From: an uncultured Acidobacteriota bacterium
Lineage (GTDB): Bacteria; Acidobacteriota; Vicinamibacteria; Marinacidobacterales; DATDRI01
DNA length: 64,000 nt
Direction of reading: 5' to 3'
Assembly (NCBI GenBank): GCA_963722765.1
Contig: CAVROO010000014.1
Location: 450,976-514,975 of the forward strand
The notes beneath the pieces were generated by a model. It did no database searches and was not told the origin of the DNA. It saw only the letters and a program-made list of their open reading frames with translations. Position 1 is the first letter of the stretch; every line of letters starts with the position of its first letter. Below, piece after piece: positions 10,201-50,180 of this stretch. The position numbers and the translations under genes were made by a program.

Positions 10201-10320
10201 CGAATAGACGCCCGCCACGCACAGGATGATCGACACAAAGACTATCGGCTTCGTGTAGGACACCGCCCAGTCGCCGATTCCGCGCTCGGGCGGATTCTCT
10301 TCCAATGTTTTCACCTTCAA
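7201..10320 (-). CDS. efflux RND transporter permease subunit (AcrB/CzcA superfamily)
   Basis: An intact ORF of about 1040 aa with 12-TM RND architecture and typical segments (GLVIDDAIVVVE, GAIIGFGVVAKNGILM). The probable TTG/GTG start at 10320/10314 abuts the adaptor gene stop at 10322. Confidence 0.9.
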   Translation of the reverse strand: MKVKTLEENPPERGIGDWAVSYTKPIVFVSIILCVAGVYSAWTLTSSVFPPTDFPRVVILVDNGVAAADEMMATITRPIEEAMKDVPGAVTLRSQTGQGTADINVFFDWSTDMVRAELYVLGRLAQVRSSLPSTATTTVHRLTFSAFPILGVSLTSPSRDLMTLWETARYTIKPRFLRVPGVARVDLVGGRAPEFHVIVDPARLLARNLDLPAVSNALARNNLIEPAGMHEENHTLYLAVVDGRARTREEIGDVVIAMTDGTPVRVSDVARIERGEEPVFTRVTAEGADAVLINVRSQPNGATLQIARDVGREIRALERELPPDMKLTFFYDQSLIVRESVRAVWEAISIGLVLSVGIMLLFLRSWRTTLAAALVIPVTLLTTIAIMKVAGMTFNLMTLGGLAAAVGLVIDDAIVVVEAIHTMRSQDLSRLDAVRSGIADILRPLLASTVTPVVVFVPLAFLDGIAGAFFRALALTMVVALLSSLVLALTFTPVLVHALMRDGEANSHKDRHERATMTGSVARAYHTLLLGALRWRWATMLTCLAVIVMSVSLYTSIATDFLPEMDDGGFVIDYRMRPGASLTESNRMLLQAEALLQAVPEVESYSRRAGARLALAVTPPNTGDILVKLRPDRRRETAEVIADVRRQYTNAFPEVEWEFPAILNDLIGDLMWAPKPIEVRLYSTDLAYLKARAPEIEAAIREVPGVVDTFNGLNYAGDTLRLSLRQIDARRVGVTGEDIAVAARGAMLGLTPSALLLGDRLIPIRVKVDPAHIATAKEFARLPIRAADGQAVQLSQVVRVVEESGQIELRRDDLRQDVSVTARLEGRDLGSAMRDIQQTIQSKFSFPPGTVEYAGLFEQQQAAFRNLGLVLAMAIVLVFTVLLVEFRSFRGPVAIATGSVLALSGTLLALWLTDTSLNVVSYLGAIIGFGVVAKNGILMLDMVGQVIADGVPTVEALVRSGRRRLRPVLMTSLSTGFAMLPLAYGLGTGAGMLKPLAIAVIGALVMSVLFSLVVTPTVYASLSRHATIKPEGESVVART

Positions 10321-10321
10321 A

Positions 10322-11450
10322 TTACCGCGACGGCTGTTCTGAATTCCGAATCGAGACCGTCGTCCGTGGGCCGAGGTCGAATGCGCCCTCAACTGCGACC
10401 AGCAGTCCCTCCTGCAAGCCATCGCCTTCGATTTCCCGCAACGCTCCTTCGCGGACGCCCACGGTCACAGGTCGTTTGACGGCCACGTTGCCCTCGACGA
10501 TGGCGATGCTCGGGCCATCCGGGTCGGGCAGCACACTGTCAACAGGCACCGCCAGACGGTCTTGTCTGGTGTTCGACCAGGATCCGCGCCGTCACCAATT
10601 GGCCGGGGCGCAGACCCGACGTTCGGGGCACGGACACGCGCACCACGACCGCGTCGGTCGTCCGATCGACCAGTGTGCCTACGTACACAACCGTACTCGA
10701 CACCGTCGCCGGGATTCCACGAAGAGTGCCGTCCCCGGTCCCGGCTTCGGTAACCAGATCCGCGGTCTGTCCAACCTTGACACGCCCGACATCGGCACTT
10801 CGAATGCCGGCGGAAACGACCAGGCGCCGGAGATCCATGATCTCGGCGAGCACGCGGGCCGGCTCGACCGCGTCGCCCAGTCGTGCGTTGAGGAGCACGA
10901 TTGTGCCGGCAATCGGCGCGCGGACCGTCAGCAGCGACTGTTCGCGCTCTGCGAGCGCCAGCGCGTCGTGTGCCACCTGGACTTGTTGTTGCGCCTCCTC
11001 GTACGCCTTCCGCGAGGTGACTTCTCCCGGCCGCAGTCGTTCCTGGCGGGCCAGTTGCTGCTCGGCGAACCGCAAGGCCGCTCGTGCGCGGTCCACGGCG
11101 ACATCCGCCAAGCGAGCGTCGAGGCGGAACAGCACCGCGCCACGGTCGACTCGCTGGCCTTCGCCTGCCAACACGGTGGCGAGCAGTCCGGCGACGGGCG
11201 ACGCGACCTGCGCGCTGGCCGGCGGATGACCGTCCATGGCCGGCTCGGGCTCCACGTAGCCCCAACCGGTCACAATCTCGTGGAAGGTGGCCTTTACGAT
11301 CGGCGCCACACTCACACTGACCACGGGCTCGTTGTTCTCGTATGTTTCCGAGCCGACGGGGGCTTCACCGATCCGCATGATGATCGCCGCTAGACCAGCG
11401 ACGAGGAAGACAGCGGCGGCGGTAAAAAGGATGGGACGGTATCGCATCAT
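10322..11450 (-). CDS. efflux RND periplasmic adaptor (membrane fusion protein); 1 frame disruption
   Basis: Starts MMRYRPILFTAAAVFLVAGLAAI (11450), with a coiled-coil hairpin region and beta-barrel segments. The C-terminal 75 aa (10322..10549) lie in another frame, with the shift at about 10560. Confidence 0.8.
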
Positions 11451-17074: not shown

Positions 17075-19850
17075 TTAGTGGCTCGGCAGCAAGGCTTCGA
17101 TGCCGGCGCGGGTTTCTGCCGACCAGCCTGAAAAGGCGCGCACCACAAGCCCTTGCTCGTCCACTAGGATGGTTAGGGGAACGGTGATCTGTCCGGAGGC
17201 AAAAATCTTCGTCGTGTCTTCCTCATTCAGAATATAATTGCGGTAAGGAACGGACCGCTCTTTCAGATACTCTTGCACTGGTGCCGACTGGTCGAAGTCG
17301 AGGCTTATGCCCACGAGGTCAACGCCCGCTTGGGCGAGCGGTTCATGGAGTTGAGCGAGCTCCGGCATCTCCACCGCACAGGGCGCACACCAGGTGGCCC
17401 AGAAGTTGATGAGTGTTTGCCGGCCCGGCTCGAGGATCGATCGCAGGCTCACGGCCGAGGTCGCCGGAGTGGGCGTGAGGGTAAGCGCCGGCATCCTCTC
17501 ATTTGCGCTAAAAGCCAACGTACGGAAAATGCGATCGGATGTAGTTTCCGGTTCCGGAAGTTTAACGCCCTTTTCCGTAAGTCGTTCAATCTTGCCTTGG
17601 CCTTCTATTAAATGAATGCTCTCGCCGGGGCCTGCGGCTTCAACGGTCTCCACGATCCCGGAAGGCCACGTGACCTCCAAAGCGTATCGTTTTTGCCAGG
17701 CGTCACTTGGACCCAGACCGAAGAGGAGTCTAGGGTCGCTTGCCGACAAGAAGCCACTGCCACCGAGCTTGATTTTAGTTTGTGTCCCAAGGGGTGATTT
17801 CAAACGGACCACGGTGCCGAAGGCGTCCCGACCGGAACGGGTTCCGGTAAGGCCCACGCGAATGAAGCCGTTATCTTGACCGACGTTGTTCTTGAAGAGA
17901 AGGCGGGCCAGCTCTTGCACGGGTGTGATGACGACGTCGGCGTCCCCGTCGTTATCGAAGTCCGCAAACGAACAACCTCGGCCGTCGGTAATCGAATCCA
18001 GTCCTGAGACTCCGGATACCTCGAAGTAGATTCCATCGCCGCGGCTCATGAAGAGGCCGTTCCGCTCGTATCCACTGAAGGACATTCCTTTTTCGAAGAT
18101 CTCCGACATGTGGTGATCTTGATAACCGGAGTTTCCCGCTTCTTCAAGAATGGCCGCCGACGCCACGACGTGGCGCCAAAATAGGCTTCACGTGTCCTTC
18201 ATCGTTTTGCCGGAAACGAAACCGTTGACGGAATACTCGTCCTCCCACCCATCATTGTCGAAATCGAAAAAGCCGCCGCCGAAGGCCCACCCGGCGGACA
18301 AACCTCCCGCCCTTTGTGCCACGTTACGAAAGGTGCCATCGCCCAGGTTCTCGAAAATGGAGTTGCCTGCTGCCAGTTTCTTGAGAACGGCACTATCCGC
18401 CGACGCGCCAGGCATCAAGCGGGCCAGGATTCGATTCCCTGCCGTCGAGGACATGTTGGTAACGTGAATGTCGAGGTCACCATCGTTGTCGAAGTCGCCG
18501 TAGGAAACGCCCATGCCGTTTCCCGGATCGATGACGCCTCGCTCGCGTGCCTCATCTCGAAAACGGTCCCCTTGGTTGATGTAGAGGGCGTTTTCTCCGA
18601 AATCGTTGGCCACGTAGAGATCCTGAAGGCCGTCGCCGCTGACGTCTGCGAAAGCCGCGGCGTAGCTCCAGCGTCCGTCGTTGACGCCCCACTTCTTCGC
18701 TTCCTCGCGAAAGCGACCGTCACCTTGATTGATGAACAGCAAGTTGGGCGTGCCGTTATCCGCCTTGCCCCATGCGTTGGGCATGACACGGCCGTAGCGG
18801 TTGTAAGAGGCGACATAAATATCCGTCCAACCGTCTCGGTTCACATCGGCTGCAACCGCGCTGAAGCCGACGGCCGGCATCTCGACCCCGGCCGGACCGG
18901 AAACATCGATGAAACGAAGAACTCCCTTCGGGTCTCGATTGGTTTTGGAGAAGGATTTGGTTTCCCACCGCCGCCATGAAGATGTCTTGGTCCCCGTCGT
19001 TGTCGTAGTCGAGAAAAAGCGCGCCCGTTCCGGTCCGACTGTATCGAACCAAAGACTCGTCCGAGACATCTCGAAATCGTCCCGTTGCCTCGTTGAGGTA
19101 CAAGCGGCTACCTGTAACACCGCTGGTGAGAAGATCCAGAAGACCATCTTCGTTGACGTCGGCCACCGCTACACCGTGCGCCACGAAACCGTCGTTGGGT
19201 GGTTCCCCGAAGGGCGGAGCTTCTTCCCAAAGACCGGCCGGTGCCGTGATCTCCGAGAATAGGTCCTTCTCTGAGACCAACGAGGACAAGGACTCGATAT
19301 CCCAGTGAGTGATTTGCCAGGGCCCTTCGTTGATGTGTTGAGCTTGCGTTTGGATGGTTCCGCGCACCCATTCTCGTAGCCCGTCTTGATTTCTCCCGAC
19401 CAAAAAGACAAAGACTCGTGCCCGACCGCGAACCGGCCGGTTTGCTTCGAAATCGGCTTGCTTGACCTTGAGACGAAAGTCTTCGATGTCGGTAAAGTGA
19501 GAAAGGAAGCCTTGAAGACTCTGTCTGAATTCGTCTCGATGAATCCGACTTGGAGCTTTCGCTAGGTTCCAATCGCGTCGGCCGAGCCATTTCGTTTCAG
19601 GAACCAAAGGTTTCGGCTGGGATGGAAATGCCGTCCCTTCGATCTCGTCAGCGAAATATTTGGATACCTGTGAAAGGTCTTGACGCCGGAGTGCCACGGA
19701 CAGATCCAAAAGATCGTTGGCCAGCGACTCCGAGTGATCCTCCGCTTGCTCCAGTTTCGATCGGTCGAAGTTAAGTTGCTTTGATTCTTGCACTGTCCCG
19801 CCGGCTGAGATCAGCCCGAGCAGGATAGGAATGATTCCTACGTTATTCAT
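17075..19850 (-). CDS. CRTAC1/ASPIC-UnbV FG-GAP (VCBS) repeat protein fused to a C-terminal TlpA-like thioredoxin domain; 1 frameshift plus 1 in-frame TGA
   Basis: Three consecutive ORFs (19850..18756, 19147..18188, 18166..17075) carry repeated 'DxDxDGxxD' FG-GAP motifs (DYDNDGDQD, DFDNDGDLD, DFDNDGWED, DFDNDGDAD). They are followed by the UnbV_ASPIC segment 'RVGLTGTRSGRDAFGTVVRL...GGSGFLSASDPRLLFGLG' and the thioredoxin motif 'LINFWATWCAPC'. The shift is at about 18961-18970 and the TGA at 18190..18188. Confidence 0.75.
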
Positions 19851-37371: not shown

Positions 37372-37460
37372 CCAATCGGCAGCCCGAGACGGTCACCAAA
37401 GAGAAACCTCCATAGAGCAAGCCGAGTGAAATGAAAACGGATAGACATAGGAAAGTGGTT

Positions 37461-38879
37461 ATGCATCAGATACGGATCCAACGGCTCCTGAAGATCACGG
37501 GAGCAAAACTCGCTCTGGCGGCAGCCGTCGTTGCACCTCTGGTGCTCGGGTTGCCTGTTTCCGCTGGGGTCGCGGGAGCACAAGAAAGCCCCCTGACCCT
37601 CGATGAGGCCATCGCGAAAGCCCTTGTGCACAATCCCGACGCCGAAGCGGCACAGGAGGCGGCGAAGGTTGGTGAGGCCCGCCACCAGCAGGCGGTGGCT
37701 CGCTTTTTGCCGCGTGTGGACTACATCGAGTCGTGGAACCGCGGCAACAATCCGGTCTATGTCTTCGGGTCACTTCTCAACCAGGGGAGGTTCACCGAGG
37801 AAAACTTCGCCATCGATCGGCTCAATCATCCCGACGCCGTGAGCAACTATCGTTCACAGTTCGTGTTGCAGCAGCCCATCTTTATCGGGGGCCAGAACAT
37901 CCTCGGACTCGATGGGGCGCGAATCGGTCGCGACATGGCGGAAGAAGGACGGAAACTCACCGAAATGCAAGTCATCTTCCACACGCTGCGGACCTATTTC
38001 GGAGTGCAGGTGAGTGCGGAGAACCTGAATGTCATTGGTAAAGCCCTGGCTAGCGCCCAGGAGGACTTGAATCGAGCTCAGGCTCTTTTCGATTCCGGGA
38101 TGGTGACGGAAGTCGATTTGTTGTCCATCAAAGTCCACCTGGCAGGTCTCAAGGAAGAGCAGATCCGTGCAAAAAACGCTCTCGAAGTCATGAAGGCCGA
38201 GCTCAGTCAAACCGTCGGTGAGCCTCTCGACAGCGAGTTCACACTTCTTACCCCGCTCGAATATCGTGAAAAAAAGGAAACCGGCGGCGTCGTGGAAGAT
38301 CTCGTTGTGTCGGCGATGGAGAATCAGCCGGCCGCCAAGATGAAGAGTCTCGAAGTCGAGTCCATGCGGGTGAAGAAAAAAATGTCACACGCCAACTTCC
38401 TGCCGTCGGTGGCGTTACAGGCCGGTTGGCAGTCGGACCGGGAGAGCTTCACCGGCGACGGCGGTTCGAGCTGGGTCTTGGGATTGGCCATGCAAATCAA
38501 TCTTTTCGAAGGGACGGGAAAATTCGCTCGTGCTTCCGAGGCCGCGGCCGGGTTGAGGAAGGCCGAGGCTGAGAAGAGGAAAGCGGATGACACCATCCGT
38601 CTCGAAGTACGTCGTGCGTACCTGGATCAGGCGGCTGCGGCGGAACGTGTCGAGGTGGCTCGAACTGCAGTGGCACAGGCGAGGGAGAGCCACAGAATCA
38701 CTGAAGCTCGTTACGAAGGCGGGCTCTCTAATGTAACCGAGTTGTTGCGGAGCCAGAGCGCTCTGCTCGATGCGGAAGCCAGGTATCTTGGTGCAATTTA
38801 TGGGGGGCGGCTGGCCGAGGCTCGATTGGAGCTTGCAGTCGGGACGCTTCACAAAGAATCAGAGGCGGTAAAGCCGTGA
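37461..38879 (+). CDS. TolC-family outer membrane efflux protein
   Basis: The signal is followed by 'SPLTLDEAIAKALVHNPDAEAA' and two repeats of coiled-coil/beta segments typical of OEP/TolC. Confidence 0.85.
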   Translation: MHQIRIQRLLKITGAKLALAAAVVAPLVLGLPVSAGVAGAQESPLTLDEAIAKALVHNPDAEAAQEAAKVGEARHQQAVARFLPRVDYIESWNRGNNPVYVFGSLLNQGRFTEENFAIDRLNHPDAVSNYRSQFVLQQPIFIGGQNILGLDGARIGRDMAEEGRKLTEMQVIFHTLRTYFGVQVSAENLNVIGKALASAQEDLNRAQALFDSGMVTEVDLLSIKVHLAGLKEEQIRAKNALEVMKAELSQTVGEPLDSEFTLLTPLEYREKKETGGVVEDLVVSAMENQPAAKMKSLEVESMRVKKKMSHANFLPSVALQAGWQSDRESFTGDGGSSWVLGLAMQINLFEGTGKFARASEAAAGLRKAEAEKRKADDTIRLEVRRAYLDQAAAAERVEVARTAVAQARESHRITEARYEGGLSNVTELLRSQSALLDAEARYLGAIYGGRLAEARLELAVGTLHKESEAVKP

Positions 38880-40024
38880 TGAAGTCGAAAAAAACTCTAG
38901 TCTCGATTTTGTTTTTAGTGTTGGGAACCTTCGGCTGCCGTGAGGCAGAAGAGCACGTTGCCGAGGACCGAGGAACTGCAAACGTATCGGTCTTTACCGT
39001 CAGCAGCGGCTCGATGGGTCTAGGTTATATGGCAAGCGGGACGTTGCGGGGAAGTCAGACCGCGGTTTTGACGAGCAAGGCCCCGGGATATGTCCAGGCG
39101 GTCCGTTTCAAGCCGGGAGATCTCGTAAAGGCCGGGCAGGTTCTTTTTGTTCTGGAGGACAACGAGCTCGGCGCCAAGCTTCGCGCCGCAGAGGCTGGAC
39201 TCGAGGAAGCACGCCAAGCGAGGACGGAGGCCGAAAGCGGACTAGTGGCGGCGGAAGCTCAGGCTCGGGTCGCGACGGCGACCTACGAAAGGTTCAAGAC
39301 CCTTCAGGAAAAACGCGCCGTAGCGCCTCAAGAGTTCGACGAGGTCGAAGGCAGCTACAACGCCGCCGTGGCACAAAGGCAAATGGCGGAAGCTCGACTC
39401 GGAAGGATTCGGTCGGGGTTGGCCCGTGCCGAAGCGGAGGTCGAGGCCGTCAAGAGCTACACCCAGATTACGGCACCTTTCTCCGGTCGGGTCACGGAAC
39501 GACGCGTCGATCTCGGGAACCTTGCCGCTCCCGGTGTACCCCTGGGGGTCATCGAGAGCGCCGGAGGGTTACGGGCCAAAGTGTCGATTCCTGAGGCGCA
39601 TGCGGGAAATATCAAGGTGGGTGACAAAGCCGAGATTTGGATCGAGGGAACCGATGAGCCCGTTCCCGGGCGGGTGAGCGAGGTTCAAGGGGTCGATGCC
39701 ATGAGCCGAGCTTTCATGACCGAGGTCGCTCTTCCCGAAGATCTACCCGAGATGCGGCGAGTCCGGCCCGGGATGTTCGTACGGGTTGGTTTCCAAGTGG
39801 GAAACGCCCAAGGTATTTTGATCCCGTCGTCGTCGGTTCTGGAACGGGGACAGCTCGAGATGGTCTATGTTGTGGAAAATGAGCGTGCTCGAACCCGCCT
39901 CGTTACTCTTGGAAATCGACAGGGCGATCAAATCGAAGTCCTTTCCGGCTTGGGGAGCGGCGATGTCGTCGTGGTCAACCCAAGCTCCGACCTGCAAGAA
40001 GGCATGCGGGTGGTGACGCAATGA
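38876..40024 (+). CDS. efflux RND periplasmic adaptor subunit
   Basis: 382 aa with a lipoprotein-like signal 'LGTFGC'. It has an alpha-hairpin ([19 protein letters not shown]...), then '[18 protein letters not shown]' and beta-barrel domains. ATGA overlaps occur on both sides. Confidence 0.85.
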
Positions 40025-43000
40025 ACGGCCAAAAACTGGGATACGCCGGCAGCATCGCCGCGGCGTTTATCAATTCCAAACTCACGCCTCTCTTCTTGTT
40101 CGGTGCGGTGCTTCTGGGGCTCTTCACGCTCTTGATGCTGCCCCGCGAGGAGGAGCCGCAGATCATCGTGCCCATGTTCGACGTCTTCGCGGCCATGCCG
40201 GGCACTTCTGCCAAGGAGATCGAGCAGCGTGTGACGAGCCCCATGGAACAGCTCTTGTTCGAGATCCCCGGCGTGGAGTACATCTATTCCACCTCGAGTC
40301 CCGGCATGAGCATGGCTATTGTTCGCTTTTTCGTGGGCGAAGATGAAGAGGACTCCGCCGTCCGCCTCATGAACAAGCTCCGGGCCAACTTCGATCGGAT
40401 TCCGTCGGGCGCGATGCAGCCTTTGGTCAAGGTCCGTTCCATTGATGACGTTCCCATCCTGGGCTTGACCTTGTGGAGCAAGCGGTACGACCATTTTCAG
40501 CTGCGGCAGGTCGCCGCCGAGCTCGAGACCGCGATCAAGCAGGTGCCCGACGTCAGCGAAGTGACGATCATCGGCGGCGAGCGCCGGCAGGTTCGAGTCC
40601 TTCTCAACCCGTCGGCCATGGTATCCCGAAACCTCTCACCACTCATGATTGCGGGCGCTCTTCAAGCCTCCAATCGGCTCATCGAATCGGGCTCCTTCGC
40701 TTCGAGCAACCAGGAGTTCAAGTTGGATACCGGCGGATGGCTGCGTGATGTCGAAGACGTTGAGAGTGTCGTGGTCGGTGTTTACGAGAACACTCCGGTT
40801 TTCCTGCGAGATGTTGCCGAGATTCGGGACGGTGGCGAAGAACCTTCCAACTACGTGTTATTTGGTGCCGGCGCCGCAGAGGCGGAGCATCTAGACGCCG
40901 AGGGTGCCGAGTGGCCGGCGGTGACCCTCTCGGTCGCCAAGCGCAAGGGCAAGAACGCCGTGGCGGTCAATCATGCCGTCCTTGCGAAAGTCGACTCGCT
41001 CCGGGGCGACATCATACCCGCCGACGTAGAGCTGACCATCACACGGGATTACGGCGAGACGGCAAAGGAAAAAAGCGACGAGCTCCTACTCCATATGCTC
41101 ATCGCCGTCGTCAGTGTGTCGATATTGATCTGGCTCACCCTGGGGCGGCGGGAGTCGATGATCGTCTTGTTGGCTATCCCTGCGACGCTCGCCTTGACGC
41201 TCGCCGTTTTCTACTTCTACGGGTTCACACTCAACCGTATCACTCTCTTCGCTCTCATTTTCTCTATAGGGATCCTCGTCGATGACGCGATCGTGATCGT
41301 GGAGAACATTGCCCGGCATTGCCGTCTGCCGGAGAACAAGGGCCTGAGCACGGCACAAATTGCGGTAAAAGCCGTGGACGAGGTGGGTAACCCGACGATT
41401 CTGGCGACCCTCGCGGTCATCGCCGCCATCTTACCGATGGCCTTTGTGAGCGGTTTGATGGGGCCCTACATGAGACCCATTCCCATCGGAGCAACGGCCG
41501 CCATGGTGTTCTCGTTGATCGTCGCCTTCGTGGTGACACCATGGGCCACGATTCGACTGCTCAAGTGCGAAGGTGGAGAAGAAGACCATCATCATGTGGA
41601 AAGCGCGAGCACCCGCAAGTATCGGCAGGTGATGGGTAAACTGCTCAGTTCCGACAAACACCGGCGGTTTTTCTTGACCGGTGTGGTGGTCCTGCTTCTC
41701 GGATCCATGGCGCTCGTCGGTATCGGATTCGTCGAAGTCAAAATGCTTCCCTTCGATAACAAGAGCGAGTTTCAGGTCATCGTCGATATGCCCGAGGGCA
41801 CGACTCTCGAACAAACCACGCGTGTGACACGAGCTCTCGCCGATGTCGTCGCGAAACAGCCGGAAGTCACCCACTACCAGGTCTATGCCGGAACCTCTGG
41901 TCCCTATAACTTTAACGGGCTGGTACGACACTACTTCTTGCGACAGGGCTCGAACGTGGCCGATATCCAGGTCAACCTCCTCGAAAAGGGGCACCGGAGT
42001 CTCAAGAGTCACGATATTGCCAAACGGCTTCGAGATGAGCTCCTCCCCGTGGCGGAAGAGCATGGTGCCCACATCAAAGTTTCCGAAGTTCCTCCGGGCC
42101 CCCCGGTGCTCCAGACCTTGGTGGCGGAGATTTACGGCCCCAACTACGAGCGGCAGATGGAGATTGCCGGCCTCGTACGGCAGAAAATGGAAGAGCTGGA
42201 CGGCGTCGTTGATGTGGATTGGTACGTGGAAGACGACCAGCTCAAGTACCGTCTCGTTGTGGATCAAGAAAAGGCCGCGCTCAGCGGAGTGCGGCTCGAT
42301 GCGATTGCGCGGACTTTACGGTTGGCCACTTCCGGTGAGACGGCAGGGCTCCTTCACGATGACAAGGAACAAGAGGACATCCCCATCGTGCTGCAGCTCG
42401 ATCGACCGACACGCTCGGATCTGGAACAGCTCCGCGGTCTGCGCGTCATGAGCCGGAGCGGGAACATGATCAGCGTGGGCGACCTGACTCAGGTTGAGGT
42501 CGTACAGCAAGACAAGAGTATCTATCACAAGAACCTTTTGCCGGTGACCTATGTGACCGCCGACGTGGCGGGAGAAATCGAAAGCCCCGTCTATGCCATT
42601 TTGAAGTTGGGCCCCCAGATCGAGGACATGAAGCTGCCGGAAGGCTACTCCATGGTCCAGTACACGGCCAAGGAGCCCTTTTTCACCGACAAATATTCAA
42701 TGAAGTGGGACGGGGAGTGGCACATCACTTATGAAGTCTTTCGCGACCTCGGGCTTGCCTTCGCTGCGGTGCTCATCTTGATCTACATCCTGGTGGTGGC
42801 CTGGTTCCAGTCTTTTCTGGTGCCTTTGGTGATCATGTCCGCCATTCCGTTCTCCTTGGTCGGCATCCTGCCCGCGCACGGCTTCATGGGAGCCTTTTTC
42901 ACCGCAACGTCGATGATCGGTTTCATCGCCGGGGCGGGTATCGTGGTTCGGAACTCCATCATCTTGGTCGATTTCATCGAGCTCCGGTTGAACGAAGGGA

Positions 43001-43248
43001 TGCCGCTGGACGAGGCAGTCGTCGATGCCGGCGCCGTTCGGTTCCGACCGATGGTGCTGACCGCGGCGGCCGTGGTCGTGGCGGCGGCGGTCATACTGTT
43101 CGATCCGATTTTCCAAGGACTGGCGATTGCCTTGATGGCGGGTGAGGTCGCTTCACTCCTTTTGTCCCGTGTCACGGTGCCCGTCGTCTACTTCATGATG
43201 AAACGGAGACAGTTGAGAACGTCCCCGTCCGGAGGAGAAGCAAAATGA
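40021..43248 (+). CDS. efflux RND transporter permease subunit
   Basis: An intact 1075-aa ORF with 12-TM RND layout ('[17 protein letters not shown]', '[20 protein letters not shown]'). Confidence 0.9.
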
Positions 43249-44804: not shown

Positions 44805-46370
44805 TCAGATCCGGCGGTCAACGTCGGGAAAGCTCCGCCACACGGAAACTCCGCAGAATCTGTCCCCCTCGGTACATCGAGGCGAGACCACACCGTTGCG
44901 GACAACGCATGGCGGTCCCATGTGGGCGGCGATTCGCGGGTGGACCCGTCGTACTTGATCGAGCTCCTCCATGGATGCCTGGTAGATTTCTTCTTGGGCA
45001 TTGAAACAGGTTCGCATGGTCCACTTGTGCATGAGATGTATGAGAGAGCCCGATTCGACAAAGCGCAGGGCCTTGGCGTTGGGAAGGACATAGATCGCCC
45101 ACTCGAGCGGTACGCCGAGCGCCAGTAAGCGATTCTTGGCGTTCCAGCTCGCTTCCATGGCTTCACGGAAAACCGAGGACGCCTCATCGTTTCCTGCAAT
45201 CAACATTGGGACCATGTAATCCGGCTGCTCGGTATCGGTCAGCGTCATCAGGGGCCGGGAAGCGGGAACCATGCGATGGCGTTGGTCTTGCGAATCCGCG
45301 GTGTGGCTGACCTTTTTCATGAACGTGTAGTGCGCGTGTTCGAGCGTCCGCATTAGGGGTGAATGCGTCGAAACATTGAGCGTGTCGGTGCGCAAAGGGT
45401 TGAGATGGGCGTCGAGTAGACGGGCCAGGGCGGTCTCAGTGGCTACCTGTTCCCTTGTGACTCCGAGCACCGCTCTCGCGGCTTCGGCGATGATTTCTTC
45501 GGCGCCTTCCGAGGTGTCGATAAGCTTCGAGACCCGCCCTTCCAGTTTTTCGTCGAACTCGCGGCAGAAGTCCTCCGAGTTTTCCTGCACTCCCGGAAAC
45601 GTCCGTTCCGGCAGGTCTTCGCCACCGAGCGGCCGTTCTCCTATTTTTTCGAAGAAGGCCGGGTCCACGGCTCGCACCGCCTTCACCATGGCGTCAACAA
45701 CCCGGGCTGCTTCGTATGGGACGTCGTTCGCCGCCTGCATGCGCCGGAGCCGATGAAGAGTGATTCCAGAGACCGTGTGCACCATCGAAGTGAAAGCAGC
45801 GAGCGGGATGACGTAACGTGCGATCTCGAATGCTTTTTTTTCCGCTTCGCGTTCGATTTTCTTTCGGCGCTTTTTACCTCCGCCGTCACGGAAGTGGCGA
45901 AGCTCGGACAAGATGCGCCAGGTGTCTTTCTTGAGGATATCCGTGAGTCGCCGGTAGGTGTTCCAAGCGCCATGTACGGCCGCTTCGTAAACTTCGAGGG
46001 CCTCCCCTTCGATGGGGGGGACGAAGACCCGTACTTCGTCGAGGCGCACGAATCGCTGTGACGATTGTTCCGAGTTATAAAAAGGATGACTGTGGAGGAG
46101 ACTCCAAACGAGTTGGCGCGAAATATTCTCCAAGCCAAAGGCGAAATGGGCGTGTTGATAGACGGTATGGTGCCCGCCGCCGAAGGTGGCCCGGCTGATG
46201 GAATCGCGTTGCTTGTCCGTGACCTCGGAGGTTTCGACCACGCGCGGCATGTAGCAAGTGCGAGCCGCCGCAATGGAAAGGTCAAAGGCGTCTTCAAAAA
46301 AAGACAGCAATCGAACGCGGGGTCCCTCTCGAACGAGCCGGTCGTGATTTACCATGGTTGAGCGGGCCAA
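44805..46370 (-). CDS. tandem-domain ThyX-like (FAD-dependent thymidylate synthase family) protein
   Basis: 521 aa. The first half has 'ISRQLVWSLLHSHPFYNSEQSSQRFV' (S..S.R retained, RHR replaced by HSH). The second half has 'VSHTADSQDQRHRMVPASRP' (RHR present). Confidence 0.65.
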   Translation of the reverse strand: MARSTMVNHDRLVREGPRVRLLSFFEDAFDLSIAAARTCYMPRVVETSEVTDKQRDSISRATFGGGHHTVYQHAHFAFGLENISRQLVWSLLHSHPFYNSEQSSQRFVRLDEVRVFVPPIEGEALEVYEAAVHGAWNTYRRLTDILKKDTWRILSELRHFRDGGGKKRRKKIEREAEKKAFEIARYVIPLAAFTSMVHTVSGITLHRLRRMQAANDVPYEAARVVDAMVKAVRAVDPAFFEKIGERPLGGEDLPERTFPGVQENSEDFCREFDEKLEGRVSKLIDTSEGAEEIIAEAARAVLGVTREQVATETALARLLDAHLNPLRTDTLNVSTHSPLMRTLEHAHYTFMKKVSHTADSQDQRHRMVPASRPLMTLTDTEQPDYMVPMLIAGNDEASSVFREAMEASWNAKNRLLALGVPLEWAIYVLPNAKALRFVESGSLIHLMHKWTMRTCFNAQEEIYQASMEELDQVRRVHPRIAAHMGPPCVVRNGVVSPRCTEGDRFCGVSVWRSFPDVDRRI

Positions 46371-46470
46371 TCCTACACCAATTTGGGGTCACGTGGGTGA
46401 AAAGGCGAGGAGGCGGGCGCGTTTCAGCCGCCTTGCCATCACGTTATGATGGGCTCCCATGGAGGGAGTT

Positions 46471-48253
46471 ATGAGCCGCCTAAATGTCCTTGTCGTTTTT
46501 CTTTTTCTGGTTACCCAAGGTGTTTCAACCCAGGCCGCGGACGAAGCTGCTTTGCTGCGAGAGGTTCTCCCGCAGGAGCTCGAGCGTCATGCAAAGGAGA
46601 TCGTGAAGCACGTTCGTCCCTCCGGGAGCCCCGGGGAGTTCGCCGCCATCGATTACGTGGTCAAGACGCTCCGCTCCGAGGCTATTCCCGTGGATGTGCA
46701 TGAGTTCTCCGCCTATGTGAGCGATCCCGTCCGAGCCTCGCTTCGGTTGGACGGCGCCGAGCCCAAGGAGTGGCAGGCCTTGACCCAGGCCTTTTCGGTC
46801 TCGACTGGACCGGAGGGTCTCACGGGCGAGCTCGTCGATTGCGGAAAAGGTGGAGCGGAAGACTACGCCCGCTGCGACACGCGGGGAAAGATCGCCTTTT
46901 TGGATGCGCGAGCGGGTCCGGATGAGCTACGAGCCGCACAGTTGGCGGGAGCCGCCGGAGCGGTTTTCGTGTCGAGCTCAGAGCGAATCAACGAGATGAC
47001 CGTGGGGCCGATCTGGGGTACACCTACACACAAGGACTACACCGAGCTTCCCTCGATTCCGAGTGTCGCAGTCGCAAAGGCATCGGGAGCCGAGCTCCGG
47101 AAGCTCATGACCGGAGGACCTTTGTCGGTTCGCCTGGAGACCGAGCTCGATGTGGGCTTGAAGACGCTCCGAGTGACGGTCGCAACGGTTCGTAGTGCCA
47201 AGGATCCCGAGGGATTCGTCCTCGTGGGAGGACATATGGACGCGTGGCATCATGGTGCGACCGACGAGGGAACCTCCAACGCCGCGATGGTGGAACTGGC
47301 CCGGATCTTCTACCGGCATCGGGCCGAGCTCGAACGGGGACTCAAAGTGGCGTGGTGGACGGGCCACTCGAATGGTCGCTACGCCGGCTCCACCTGGTTT
47401 GCCGACAGGTTCTGGACCGAGCTGAAAGACCATGCGTTGGCCTACCTCAATCTGGATGTCATCGGCCAAATCGACGCCAAGATTTATAGTGCGGCTTGCA
47501 CGCCGGAAATGGATGATCTCGCGAAATCCGTGATGAAGGACGTGGTCGGTGTGGACGCGACGACCCGCCGTCCGAGCCGCAATTCCGATCAGTCTTTTTA
47601 CGGTGTGGGTCTACCGCTGCTACAGTTCTATCACGATCGTTTGGAGGAAGATGGCGGCTACTGGTTTTGGCATACTCCCGAGGACACCTACGACAAGATC
47701 GATTTCGACAATCTGACGGCCGAAACGAAGCTCTACGTTGCGGCACTCCATCGCTTGCTGACGAGTCCCTTACCGCCCATGGACCCCGCCGCCACGACCG
47801 CGGAGATCAAGCAATTTTTGGAAGACAAATCGAAAGTTAGCGGTGCTACCGGTTTGTCTTTCGATGCCGCTCTCGAACGAGCGGAGCGCCTTCACAATCT
47901 GGTGGTCAGTCTGCGAGAGCAAGTTCGGCGCAGGTGTGGAAGAGCTGGGAGCGCAAGAAATGTCGAGGCGCTTGGTGCGGCTCGTGCGTCCGGTGCTGCG
48001 GGTGGTCTATCAAGAGAGCGGACCTTATCATCAAGACCCGGCGCTCTCCACCAAGAAAATGCCGGGACTGTCGGCACTGGATGACCTCGGGCTTCTCGAC
48101 CCCGAAAGTAACTTGTATCGGTTCACCGAGACCTATCTGGTGCGTGAGTTGAACCGGATCATCGATCATCTGGACCAGGCGCTCCGAGAAGGGGAGAGTC
48201 TGGCGGGCGATCTGACGGTATCTTTGCCGACGGAGAGCAGCACGCAACACTAG
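46471..48253 (+). CDS. M28-family peptidase with PA and transferrin-receptor-like dimerisation domains; 1 frame disruption
   Basis: A signal peptide is followed by 'VGGHMDAWHHGATDEGTSNAAMVELARIF' and 'WWTGHSNGRYAGSTWF'. The C-terminal 110 aa (frame of ORF 47843..48253) join at about 47905-47920. Confidence 0.75.
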
Positions 48254-48276
48254 TTATCCGGTTAACGCTCGAAAAA

Positions 48277-48330
48277 GGGACAGGTCCGTTTTTGGTGCAC
48301 GTTTCGCTTTGCCAAAAAGGGACCTGTCCC
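48277..48330 (-). repeat. solo copy of the MITE core hairpin (reverse orientation)
   Basis: GGGACAGGTCCGTTTTTGG-tgcacgtttcgctttg-CCAAAAAGGGACCTGTCCC. The 19-bp arms have a single central G.G mismatch. It lies between the convergent M28 and Grx-like genes. Confidence 0.6.
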
Positions 48331-48393
48331 TTTATTCGGGTATCTATAAAATCGAGGACTGATAAAATCCGGCGACCGCCGGACTCAGACCCC

Positions 48394-48609
48394 TCAGGTA
48401 CCGCCGTAGCCGACGGTGACCTTTCCGCCCTCGACGATGACGGGTACTTCACGTCGTCCATTCGTGGCGTCCAGCATCTGCTGCATGCCCTCGGCGTCGT
48501 ACTGCACGTCGATGTATCGAACGTCGTTGCTTTTTTTGGCGTAGTCCGCACGGGCCGCCTCGGTGTGAGGTCAGCCTGCCTTTCCGTAGATCAAGATTTC
48601 TTCTGCCAT
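48394..48609 (-). CDS. glutaredoxin/NrdH-like small redox protein with in-frame TGA at the active-site Cys position (candidate selenoprotein)
   Basis: My own translation, not in the ORF track: ATG 48609 MAEEILIYGKAG-TGA(48573..48571)-PHTEAARADYAKKSNDVRYIDVQYDAEGMQQMLDATNGRREVPVIVEGGKVTVGYGGT-TGA(48396..48394). The layout matches small Grx-like proteins (..LYxKxGCPxC....VPVIVxxGxVxxGFGG). Confidence 0.55.
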
Positions 48610-48671
48610 GCAAGTAATCCTACCAGATAAGGGATACATCTTAGAAACAGCAAAAAGTCCGCTGTCAAATA

Positions 48672-49476: not shown

Positions 49477-50180
49477 TTACCGGCTCAGGCTCAGGCAGGG
49501 GCACGGGCTCGGCAAATCCTGATGCGGACGGCGAAAAGCCCCGGCGAAAGAGGACGCCGTCCTCAAGTTCCCTTCTGTCTTCTGCCTTCTGTATTCTGTA
49601 TTCTGTATTCTTTTTTCCCATCTCCGAGATAGTCTTTCAAGGGCGTCGTGGATGCTGCTGAAGGCCAACTCCTCCCAGGGGATTTCTTCCTTTGTGAAAC
49701 AACGAATTTCCAAGCATTCATCGGCCGCTTCGAGCTCATCGTTCAACAGAGCGGCGGCAAAGACGACGACCACGACGGGTACCCCGGGGTAAGAGTAGAC
49801 TCCAACCACCTCACGAAGCTCGACGTCGGCGTTGACCTCTTCCCTGGCTTCGCGGATGGCCGCTTCCTCGACGGTTTCTCCACGATCGACGAAGCCTCCT
49901 GGAAAGACCCACTTTCCGTACCCGGGATCGATGGCTCGACGCCCAGAACGATTTTGCCTCCGTGCTCGAAGATCGTGCAGGCCGCGACTTTCGGATCGAG
50001 AAAGAAAATGAACCGACATTTTGCACATACGAGTCGTTTCGGCTCATTGGGTTTGACTTGCTCGAGACCGAGCCCTCCTCCGCATTTTGGACAAAACCGA
50101 TATTCCTGGTCGGCTAAGCGAGGGTGTTCGATGAATCGTGTTCGCCACGGGATAACCTGCTTGATTGTTTTGACCGTCAA
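49477..50180 (-). CDS. NUDIX hydrolase with N-terminal zinc ribbon; 1 frame disruption, 3' end uncertain
   Basis: Zn ribbon 'CPKCGG...CAKC'. Nudix box '[22 protein letters not shown]'. The shift is at about 49941-49944 (GGG/CCC run). The reading frame runs on through repeat R5 to 49477, so the true stop is doubtful. Confidence 0.7.
49480..49610 (+). repeat. intergenic element R5 (CCGAGC-type arm, core, TTCTGTA-type arm)
   Basis: ccggctcaggctcaggcaggggcacgggctcgg, then CAAATCCTGATGCGGACGGCG...GCCGTCCTCAAGTTCCCTTC, then tgtcttctgccttctgtattctgtattctgtattc. Confidence 0.6.

What the first reader, a model, noticed from the sequence alone, without database searches (positions are those of the whole stretch)
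48394..48609. Unannotated glutaredoxin-like gene with TGA exactly at the catalytic cysteine position (candidate selenoprotein, U-P-H-T site)
Reading the minus strand from ATG 48609 gives MAEEILIYGKAG, then TGA (48573..48571), then PHTEAARADYAKKSNDVRYIDVQYDAEGMQQMLDATNGRREVPVIVEGGKVTVGYGGT, then a stop.

The whole 71-codon frame looks like a small glutaredoxin/NrdH-type protein: beta1 'ILIYGK', the active site at the start of helix 1, cis-Pro 'VPVIV', and the 'GYGG' end. The only break is a TGA where such proteins carry the first Cys of CPxC; here the resolving position is Thr.

Sec replacing the nucleophilic Cys of thioredoxin-fold proteins is the classic pattern for bacterial selenoproteins. 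The disruption is a substitution-type event, whereas the other defects in this window are indels. The six-frame ORF track shows only a junk 130-aa ORF here.

A GC-rich imperfect stem (GGCG..CGCC with a G/U-containing apex) starts about 12 nt after the UGA. I cannot judge by eye whether it qualifies as a SECIS.
Basis: partly seen in the sequence, partly recalled or inferred. Interest (0 to 1): 0.7.

Follow-up and report, generated by a model that had tools for sequence, protein, structure and literature searches.

The report
Known double-selenocysteine glutaredoxin-like gene

Summary
On the minus strand, ATG 48609 opens a glutaredoxin-like frame with TGA at codon 13 (48573-48571). The candidate-selenoprotein reading is supported, but it is incomplete. 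The supposed stop (TGA 48396-48394) is followed by GGG GTC TGA, so the product is 74 aa and ends ...GYGGT-U-G-V-stop. With Cys at both TGAs it matches NCBIfam NF041114, 'UXX-star selenoprotein family 1', over the full model (113 bits, cut-off 72). A 2026 review lists that family with motif UxxT and 2 Sec.

In 74 related loci from at least 8 phyla:
- The active-site codon is TGA in 55 and Cys in 19.
- The C-terminal codon is TGA in 74 of 74.
- A stop follows exactly two codons later, and it is TAA or TAG in 30.

Each UGA is followed by a SECIS-like hairpin. The one in the 3' UTR is strong (z about -3.8, GGUC loop). The one inside the coding region is weak in this sequence alone, but it is conserved with covariation in Sec forms and absent in Cys forms.

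No Sec machinery lies in the window, so decoding in this genome was not shown directly. This is a real feature from an already known family, and its biochemical function is still unknown.

The parts
48385..48609 (-). Complete coding sequence, 74 codons plus stop: MAEEILIYGKAG-U-PHTEAARADYAKKSNDVRYIDVQYDAEGMQQMLDATNGRREVPVIVEGGKVTVGYGGT-U-GV-stop
   Evidence: Translation. With Cys at both TGAs it scores 113.1 bits on NF041114 (cut-off 72) over profile positions 1-70 of 70. Against the syntenic relative L001, substitutions between the two TGAs fall 8/5/25 by codon position.
48571..48573 (-). First UGA (codon 13), the predicted active-site selenocysteine of the U-P-H-T motif
   Evidence: In 74 related loci this codon is TGA in 55, TGC in 14 and TGT in 5. 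It aligns to the first Cys of CPYC/CPHC in the solved glutaredoxins 2klx and 3ic4.
48538..48559 (-). SECIS-like hairpin 1, inside the coding region: GGCG-G-CC-[CGUGC]-GG-ACUA-CGCC. The loop (48552..48548) begins 18 nt after the UGA.
   Evidence: All six pairs form in the window. Across 36 Sec forms 85.2% of cells pair, 0 of 500 shuffles reach that, and pair 15-36 shows GC 21, CG 8, AU 1, UG 1. Across 19 Cys forms 49.1% pair, and 109 of 500 shuffles reach that. Third-codon positions 21 and 27 pair in 54 of 55 Sec forms and 6 of 19 Cys forms. Folded alone, the window sequence is no better than shuffles (z -0.04 and -0.08).
48394..48396 (-). Second UGA (codon 72), the predicted C-terminal selenocysteine, three residues from the end (U-G-V-stop)
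   Evidence: TGA in 74 of 74 parsed loci, always followed by x-[V/I]-stop. Family NF041114 is listed with 2 Sec (PMC13188914). Adding the CGV tail raises the HMM score from 104.2 to 113.1 bits and completes the profile.
48385..48387 (-). True stop codon (TGA)
   Evidence: A stop sits exactly two codons after the second UGA in 74 of 74 loci: TGA 44, TAA 15, TAG 15. The two codons in between differ from L001 only synonymously (GGG GTC against GGC GTT).
48366..48385 (-). SECIS-like hairpin 2, in the 3' UTR and overlapping the stop codon: (A)GUCCGGC-[GGUC]-GCCGGAU(U). The loop (48377..48374) begins 16 nt after the second UGA.
   Evidence: dG -12.6 kcal/mol, z -3.88, 0 of 200 shuffles fold as well. 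An equivalent hairpin is present in 73 loci: median dG -10.4 against -5.7 shuffled, loops starting 15-21 nt after the UGA, 67 of 73 loops containing GG or GU, and only 2 of 73 followed by a U-run. It is 19/20 identical to L001, while the next 40 nt are 7/40 identical.
48618..48624 (-). Possible ribosome-binding site, GGUAGGA, 8 nt before the ATG
   Evidence: Read directly from the sequence. Inferred only.
48314..48333 (-). Terminator-like hairpin AAAGGGACAGGUCCCUUUUU, about 50 nt past the stop
   Evidence: Read from the sequence. Folds at -10.3 kcal/mol with z -1.3. The consensus terminator scan did not pick it up. Inferred.

Best explanation
Window 48385..48609 (minus strand) encodes a 74-residue glutaredoxin-fold protein of the catalogued 'UXX-star selenoprotein family 1' (NCBIfam NF041114, also called 'distant Grx-like protein 1').

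Decoding (inferred from sequence and comparison). Both in-frame UGA codons are read as selenocysteine.
- Codon 13 is Sec in the active-site motif U-P-H-T, at the position of the nucleophilic Cys of CxxC.
- Codon 72 is Sec in the C-terminal tail G-G-T-U-G-V.
- Each UGA has its own SelB-type SECIS hairpin, with its apical loop 16-18 nt downstream. The first lies inside the coding sequence (loop CGUGC). The second lies in the 3' UTR just past the real stop (loop GGUC).
- The terminal UGA lies only 6 nt after the second Sec codon. It sits at the foot of the hairpin, too close to be recoded, and so terminates translation.

Protein chemistry (inference, not shown).
- The fold is beta-alpha-beta-alpha-beta-beta, with no third helix and no resolving Cys (Thr instead).
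- The flexible C-terminal Sec, which emerges right after strand beta4 next to the active site, is therefore the likely partner of Sec13.
- The pair would cycle between a diselenide and two selenols. In relatives with Cys at position 13 it would be a selenenylsulfide.
- It would act as a small redox carrier, or alternatively as a two-selenolate site that binds a metal or metalloid.
For: Family membership
- The HMM score is 113.1 bits against a cut-off of 72, over the full profile 1-70 of 70.
- Pfam Glutaredoxin is met.
- The review table lists NF041114 with motif UxxT and 2 Sec.

Both TGAs are family-conserved positions
- Position 13 is TGA in 55 loci and Cys in 19. Position 72 is TGA in 74 of 74.
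- A stop falls exactly two codons later in 74 of 74, and it is TAA or TAG in 30. The residue before that stop is always Val or Ile.
- Database entries called under a TGA=Trp code read GWPxT...GGSWGV.

Coding-type evolution on both sides of the UGAs
- Against the syntenic relative L001, substitutions fall 8/5/25 by codon position.
- The two post-UGA codons change only synonymously.
- The beta1 strand upstream of UGA-13 is conserved across loci.

SECIS 2
- z is -3.9 in the window.
- A hairpin sits at a fixed distance in 73 loci from at least 8 phyla. Stem sequences differ widely, 67 of 73 loops are GG/GU-rich, and only 2 of 73 are followed by a U-run.
- It is an island of conservation against L001, 19/20 identical and then 7/40.

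SECIS 1
- Pairing and covariation are found only in Sec forms.

Other points
- The genome uses TGA as its commonest ordinary stop, in 17 of 31 long ORFs.
- An AlphaFold model of the 62%-identical Cys-form homologue P0005 has pLDDT 87. Its best PDB matches are glutaredoxins and NrdH, with TM up to 0.84.
Against: - No selA, selB, selD or tRNA-Sec lies in the 64-kb window (only 20 long ORFs were scanned). The capacity of this genome to decode Sec is therefore assumed from the gene itself.
- SECIS 1 in the window is thermodynamically unremarkable when folded alone (z about 0). Its support is comparative only.
- Rfam has no matching family.
- Both flanking genes carry frame-shifting indels, so the assembly or the locus is not pristine.
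- The diselenide or metal-binding chemistry is inference. No distance could be measured, because the model lacks the tail and no coordinates were available. No member of the family has been characterised biochemically in the sources I could read.
Confidence: 0.9

Rival explanations
1. This is a single-selenocysteine protein. UGA-13 is Sec, but TGA 48396..48394 is the genuine stop and the protein has 71 residues. The downstream hairpin would then be only a transcription terminator.
For: The hairpin in the window is followed by UUUU. The 71-aa version already passes the NF041114 cut-off at 104.2 bits.
Against: - In 74 of 74 loci the TGA is followed by exactly two sense codons, the second always Val or Ile, and then a stop. 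That stop is TAA or TAG in 30 loci.
- The two codons differ from L001 only at synonymous sites.
- Only 2 of 73 hairpins are followed by a U-run.
- The tail completes the family profile and adds 9 bits.
- The family is catalogued with 2 Sec.
- A separate terminator-like hairpin lies about 50 nt further on.
Confidence: 0.05
2. This is a decaying pseudogene, or an assembly error. On this reading a former Cys codon (TGC/TGT) became TGA by mutation or miscall in a region that also has broken neighbouring genes.
For: The flanking M28 peptidase and Nudix genes are both frame-shifted. Cys forms of the family exist (19 of 74).
Against: - The same TGA is present in 55 independent loci, including the syntenic relative L001.
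- The sequence after it evolves under purifying selection.
- The SECIS-type constraints on synonymous sites are present in the window, with all six pairs formed and the loop CGUGC.
- The defects in the neighbours are indels, not substitutions.
Confidence: 0.03
3. The organism uses a reassigned genetic code in which UGA is a sense codon (Trp or Gly), so no selenocysteine is involved.
For: Some database homologues were translated with W at both positions.
Against: - TGA ends 17 of 31 long ORFs in the window, including the adjacent SDR gene.
- GC content is about 57%.
- Homologues place Cys, not Trp or Gly, at position 13.
- The W calls are artefacts of gene callers applied to short metagenomic contigs.
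Confidence: 0.01

Closest known systems
UXX-star selenoprotein family 1 (NCBIfam NF041114), also called 'Distant Grx-like protein 1' (Zhang & Gladyshev 2008, as tabulated in review PMC13188914)
   Same: The HMM match is full-length and above the cut-off. The length is about 70 aa. The active site is UxxT, the C-terminal Sec sits three residues from the end, and there are two Sec in total.
   Different: Nothing essential. The motif variant UPHT is rare (2 of 74 loci, against UPYT or UPFT in most). The closest database protein is 86% identical.
UXX-star (seleno)protein families 2 and 3, and the HUGP/GUXX-star fusion selenoprotein (NF041211, NF047338, NF045501)
   Same: They share the small glutaredoxin-like domain that ends in U-x-x-stop. 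All give partial hits here.
   Different: The scores are far below their cut-offs: 55.7 against 100, 59.4 against 97, and 50.5 against 325. According to the review table, family 2 has one Sec in a GxGU motif.
Clostridial selenoprotein glutaredoxin (Clostridium/Alkaliphilus oremlandii Grx, U-P-Y-C; Kim et al. 2011, cited in PMC13188914)
   Same: It has a glutaredoxin fold with Sec at the nucleophilic position. The cGrx1 and cGrx2 structures are among the best fold matches (7c12, 7c10, 4tr0; TM 0.75-0.80).
   Different: That protein has a resolving Cys (UxxC), a C-terminal helix with a glutathione site, and one Sec. The protein here has Thr at the resolving position, no third helix, and a second Sec in a C-terminal tail.
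Mammalian thioredoxin reductase C-terminal -Gly-Cys-Sec-Gly tail, and its recombinant expression in E. coli with a SECIS placed after the stop codon (own knowledge: Arner and colleagues, 1999)
   Same: A redox-active Sec sits in a short flexible C-terminal tail. The UGA lies a few codons before the stop, and the SECIS hairpin lies in the 3' untranslated region.
   Different: The protein is unrelated (a flavoenzyme), and the partner residue there is the adjacent Cys. Here the arrangement is natural in bacteria, and the likely partner is the N-terminal active-site Sec or Cys. That last point is inference.
E. coli fdhF SECIS (own knowledge: a minimal 17-nt hairpin 11 nt after the UGA, apical loop GGUC)
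   Same: Hairpin 2 starts 10-11 nt after the UGA and has the same GGUC loop. Hairpin 1 starts 11 nt after its UGA.
   Different: Hairpin 2 is untranslated and overlaps the stop codon. Hairpin 1 has a CGUGC loop and a two-part, weak stem.

Membership tests
[quoted passage not shown] | Whole-protein HMM score at or above the curated cut-off (72 bits), covering the full model | tested here: met
   113.1 bits, profile 1-70 of 70, with Cys substituted at both TGAs.
[quoted passage not shown] | Selenocysteine codon three residues before the C-terminus (U-x-x-stop) | tested here: met
   TGA GGG GTC TGA at 48396..48385. The same layout is present in 74 of 74 related loci.
[quoted passage not shown] | N-terminal UxxT (or CxxT) active-site motif on a glutaredoxin-like fold, giving two Sec in total | tested here: met
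   The motif is G-U-P-H-T at codons 12-16. Pfam PF00462 scores 29.3 against a cut-off of 22.9. The homologue model has a Grx fold. The review table gives 'UxxT, 2'.
Bacterial selenoprotein genes in general | SECIS hairpin a short, fixed distance downstream of each Sec UGA | tested here: met
   Hairpin 2 has z -3.9 and is conserved in 73 loci. Hairpin 1 is conserved with covariation in Sec forms only, but it is not significant when the window sequence is folded alone.
Bacterial selenoprotein genes in general | The genome encodes selA, selB, selD and tRNA-Sec | not testable with these tools
   None was found in the 64-kb window. The rest of the genome is not available. An exact look-up of a neighbouring protein found no source contig.
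Bacterial selenoprotein genes in general | Selenium is actually incorporated at the UGA positions | not testable with these tools
   This needs 75Se labelling or mass spectrometry.
Classical dithiol glutaredoxin / NrdH-redoxin | C-x-x-C active site with a resolving Cys | tested here: not met
   The motif is U-P-H-T, with Thr at the fourth position. That position is T or S in all 74 loci.
Classical dithiol glutaredoxin / NrdH-redoxin | Equivalog HMM scores above cut-off, and a C-terminal helix after beta4 | tested here: not met
   GRX_bact scores 34.3 against 90, NrdH 14.7 against 85.75, and YruB 35.7 against 88.55. The model ends after beta4 with no third helix.

The most novel reading that the evidence does not exclude
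The C-terminal Sec was TGA in all 74 loci, with no Cys variant seen. It may form an intramolecular diselenide with the active-site Sec13, or a selenenylsulfide in the Cys-13 relatives. That would make this a natural bacterial two-selenium redox centre that replaces the CxxC disulfide of the thioredoxin fold. Its chemistry would be something Cys cannot supply, for example a very low redox potential, or capture of a metal or metalloid. A further point is that the same codon, UGA, is read as Sec and then as stop only 6 nt later, purely because of its distance from one hairpin.
Probability: 0.35. Interest if true: 0.5.

Novelty: already known. Interest (0 to 1): 0.25.

Why it matters
For annotating this genome, a 74-aa double selenoprotein should be called at 48385..48609. 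Ordinary gene callers produce nothing there, or a spurious 130-aa ORF, or a 55-aa fragment. The gene also marks the organism as a selenium user.

More generally, the locus is a compact natural example of three things:
- Two SECIS elements serve one 225-nt gene, one translated and one in the 3' UTR.
- Sec-UGA and stop-UGA are told apart at 6-nt spacing.
- The C-terminal Sec appears to be obligatory.

The family is already catalogued, so its existence is not news. Its biochemical role remains open.

Tried and rejected
- Rfam at gathering thresholds found no RNA family in the window, so there is no curated bacterial SECIS model to lean on.
- ARAGORN found no tRNA of any kind, and therefore no tRNA-Sec.
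- An NCBIfam scan of 20 long ORFs found no selA, selB or selD.
- Folding SECIS 1 on its own gave no signal (z about 0). The support had to come from the comparison of Sec forms with Cys forms.
- The search for related loci with the whole alignment failed because it had no conserved stretch to search with. The single-protein query worked.
- An exact look-up of the neighbouring SDR protein, meant to locate the source contig, found nothing.
I modelled the 62%-identical Cys-form homologue P0005 instead, which lacks the U-x-x tail. The distance between Sec13 and Sec72 therefore could not be assessed.
- A search for a conserved gene neighbourhood across 81 loci (±3 kb) gave only lineage-specific contexts, plus spurious clusters from antisense ORFs in GC-rich DNA. 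Only L001, L039 and L055 share the window's context of Nudix, SDR, this gene, M28 peptidase and ThyX.
- The paper that named the UXX-star families (Haft & Tolstoy 2025, PMC12013261) is not in the held library. The family description rests on NCBIfam names and the table in the 2026 review.
- The consensus scan found no sigma-70-like promoter and did not flag the minus-strand terminator-like hairpin.
- I considered and rejected three alternative readings: a pseudogene, a sequencing error, and a TGA-reassigned genetic code. They are covered under the rival explanations.

Full report
1. THE OBSERVATION

The mechanical ORF list shows only fragments and a 130-aa ORF in another frame here.

It is followed in frame by GGG GTC TGA, so the frame can be read ...GYGGT-U-G-V-stop, ending at 48385.

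2. WHAT IT IS

With Cys written at both TGAs, the 74-residue protein matches NCBIfam NF041114, 'UXX-star selenoprotein family 1'. The score is 113.1 bits against a curated cut-off of 72, and it covers the whole profile (1-70 of 70). Without the three-residue tail the score is 104.2 bits and the profile is covered only to position 67.

It also passes the parent model NF041212 (91 bits, cut-off 66) and Pfam Glutaredoxin (29.3 bits, cut-off 22.9). It fails every classical glutaredoxin, NrdH and YruB equivalog by a wide margin.

[quoted passage not shown] It traces the family to Zhang & Gladyshev 2008, and the UXX-star families more broadly to Haft & Tolstoy 2025 (PMC13188914). The second of those papers is not in the held library.

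3. COMPARATIVE TEST OF BOTH TGAs

A protein search gave 76 homologues. In their alignment:
- Full-length Cys forms carry G-C-P-[YF]-T where the window has G-TGA-P-H-T.
- Entries translated under a TGA=Trp code read GWPxT...GGSWGV.
- The 55-aa entries start just after the first TGA.

I then fetched 80 loci from species-representative genomes and one syntenic metagenomic contig, L001, and read the DNA. The record titles name Methylomirabilota/NC10, Planctomycetota including Brocadiales, Acidobacteriota, Syntrophales and Desulfobacterales, Nitrospirota, Pelotomaculum, Myxococcales and Armatimonadetes. Of the 82 sequences (81 loci plus the window), 74 could be parsed automatically:

| Position | Codons found |
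|---|---|
| Active site (codon 13 in the window) | TGA 55, TGC 14, TGT 5 |
| C-terminal position (codon 72) | TGA 74 of 74 |
| Terminal stop, exactly two codons later | TGA 44, TAA 15, TAG 15 |

The residue just before the terminal stop is always Val or Ile. The commonest tails are UGV (35 loci) and UEV (19).

The syntenic relative L001 has both TGAs. The comparison of the window with L001 gives the following:
- Between the two TGAs, differences fall 8/5/25 by codon position.
- The two codons after the second TGA differ only synonymously (GGG GTC against GGC GTT).
- The next 20 nt are 19/20 identical, and the following 40 nt are only 7/40 identical.
- The upstream intergenic 60 nt are 16/60 identical.

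Translation therefore passes through both TGAs and ends at 48387..48385.

4. THE RECODING SIGNALS

After the second UGA. The window has UGA-GGGGUCUGAG-UCCGGC-[GGUC]-GCCGGA. The hairpin alone folds at -12.6 kcal/mol (z -3.88). The 45-nt context folds at -23 kcal/mol (z -3.71). No shuffle of 200 reaches either value.

Across 73 loci a hairpin occupies the same place:
- The median dG is -10.4 kcal/mol, against -5.7 for shuffled tails. dG is at or below -10 in 55% of loci, against 20% of shuffles.
- The loops start mostly 15-21 nt after the UGA.
- 67 of 73 loops contain GG or GU. Recurring loops are GGUC, GGU, GGC, CGUGA/CGUGC and GUU.
- Stem sequences differ widely between lineages.
- Only 2 of 73 hairpins are followed by a U-run, so as a class they are not terminators.

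In the window a separate terminator-like hairpin, AAAGGGACAGGUCCCUUUUU, lies about 50 nt further on.

After the first UGA. The 42 nt that follow are codon-aligned without gaps in all loci, so Sec forms and Cys forms can be compared directly.
- In Sec forms, columns 22-26 are always N-G-[G/U]-[G/U]-N: CGUGA 18, AGGUC 17, CGGGA 15, CGUGC 4 (the window's loop), CGUAA 1.
- The flanking third-codon positions 21 and 27 pair in 54 of 55 Sec forms, including three C-G to U-A double changes. They pair in 6 of 19 Cys forms.

Pair counts on the three alignments:

| Alignment | Structure tested | Cells paired | Shuffles reaching it (of 500) | Notable pairs |
|---|---|---|---|---|
| A2, 36 Sec forms (window's class) | lower stem 15-18/33-36, upper stem 20-21/27-28 | 85.2% | 0 | 15-36: GC 21, CG 8, AU 1, UG 1 |
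| A3, 15 Sec forms (AGGUC class) | stem 18-21/27-30 | 98.3% | 0 | 18-30: AU 6, GC 6, UA 2 |
| A4, 19 Cys forms | same structure as for A2 | 49.1% | 109 | none of note |

One caveat applies. Folded alone, the window's first hairpin is no better than shuffles (z -0.04 and -0.08). The shuffle controls also do not correct for relatedness between sequences. Its status as a SECIS therefore rests on the contrast between Sec and Cys forms.

5. ALTERNATIVES

- A reassigned genetic code is excluded. TGA terminates 17 of 31 long ORFs in the window, including the adjacent SDR gene.
- A nonsense pseudogene or a base-call error is very unlikely, because both TGAs are the family's conserved positions and the matching constraints on synonymous sites are present. 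Both neighbouring genes do carry frame-shifting indels, however: the M28 peptidase near 47913, and the Nudix gene within 49477..50180.
- The reading with a single Sec and a stop at codon 72 is contradicted by the invariant x-[V/I]-stop tail and by the TAA/TAG stops.

6. FOLD AND LIKELY MECHANISM

No member of the family has a solved structure. The best sequence matches in the PDB are ordinary glutaredoxins at E about 1e-4, and they align the first Cys of CPYC/CPHC to the window's UGA-13.

I therefore modelled P0005, a Cys-form homologue 62% identical to the window protein. The AlphaFold model has pLDDT 87.2 and pTM 0.74. Its topology is beta-alpha-beta-alpha-beta-beta with no third helix.

Foldseek finds A. 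fulgidus Grx-1 (TM 0.84), the Clostridium oremlandii cGrx1/2 structures, E. coli Grx3, NrdH and BC3987.

Shown here: the fold, the position of Sec13 at the nucleophile site, the absence of a resolving Cys (T or S in all 74 loci), and a Sec that emerges three residues after the conserved GG that follows strand beta4.

Inferred:
- In glutaredoxins, the loop after beta4 borders the active site (established structural knowledge).
- The C-terminal Sec is therefore the probable partner of Sec13 or Cys13, forming a diselenide or a selenenylsulfide.
- The other possibility is that the two selenols chelate a metal or metalloid. The review raises metal binding as one possibility for UXX-star proteins.

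No Cys variant of the C-terminal position was seen in 74 loci, whereas position 13 alternates between Sec and Cys. This suggests that the C-terminal selenium is the indispensable one.

7. CONTEXT

- The gene follows a Nudix gene and an SDR gene on the same strand. It converges on an M28/PA peptidase gene, and a 521-aa ThyX-like gene lies beyond that.
- The same order occurs in the metagenomic contig L001. It occurs in part in two Acidobacteriota MAGs, L039 and L055, so the window may come from that phylum or a neighbouring one.
- Across the family the neighbourhoods are lineage-specific.
- The window contains no tRNA, no Rfam match, and no selA, selB or selD among the 20 long ORFs scanned.

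8. VERDICT

The correct description is a 74-residue protein with two selenocysteines, belonging to the already catalogued UXX-star selenoprotein family 1.
- Confidence in that identification: 0.9.
- Confidence in the proposed diselenide or metal-site chemistry: about 0.35.
- Novelty: already known.
- Interest: low to moderate. It matters for annotation, and as a clean natural example of two SECIS elements and spacing-dependent reading of UGA in a 225-nt gene.

Noticed in passing
window 46459..48253 (+), frame change near 47913: The M28/PA-domain peptidase gene is split by a one-base frame shift. Residues 7-489 of the L001 homologue align in frame 1 and residues 490-596 in frame 2. This is either an assembly indel or a pseudogene.
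   Followed up: partly
window 49477..50180 (-): The Nudix hydrolase gene upstream of the SDR gene is spread over two overlapping frames (ORFs 49743-50180 and 49477-50028). A tblastx comparison with the L039 homologue switches frame. This is a second indel-type defect next to the intact selenoprotein gene.
   Followed up: partly
window 44805..46370 (-): A ThyX-like ORF of 521 aa, about twice the usual ThyX length. It is 72% identical to a 528-aa Pfam Thy1 protein in L001, and a homologue is also adjacent to the selenoprotein gene in the Acidobacteria MAG L055.
   Followed up: no
window 48314..48333 (-) and about 48268..48289 (+): Two nearly identical GGGACAGGTCC hairpins, each with a T-run, lie in opposite orientation between the convergent selenoprotein and peptidase genes. 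They look like back-to-back terminators. The consensus scan did not flag them.
   Followed up: partly
window 17075..18166 (-): A TlpA/ResA-like thioredoxin-fold protein of 363 aa has a weak hit to the selenoprotein family 'ResA-like WAxxUGC motif' (NF041054, 48 bits against a cut-off of 300). The ORF is uninterrupted, so it is presumably a Cys form.
   Followed up: no
loci L002-L081 (family-wide): The hairpin after the first UGA comes in two architectures that follow protein subfamilies. One has the loop AGGUC, encoded by Arg-Ser (AGG UCG), in the short ARSAYG forms. The other has the loop CG[U/G]G[A/C], encoded by Arg-Glu or Arg-Ala, in the long forms. Cys-form relatives of the short subfamily have Leu (CTG or TTG) in place of that Arg.
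   Followed up: partly
loci L002-L081 (family-wide): In 44 of 74 loci the terminal stop is itself UGA, only 6 nt after the Sec-UGA and at the foot of the same hairpin. The same codon is therefore read in two ways within three codons.
   Followed up: no
window 7201..10422 (-) and 37431..43248 (+): The window holds two RND-type efflux systems. One is a permease of 1073 aa. The other is a TolC-like, adaptor and permease operon.
   Followed up: no
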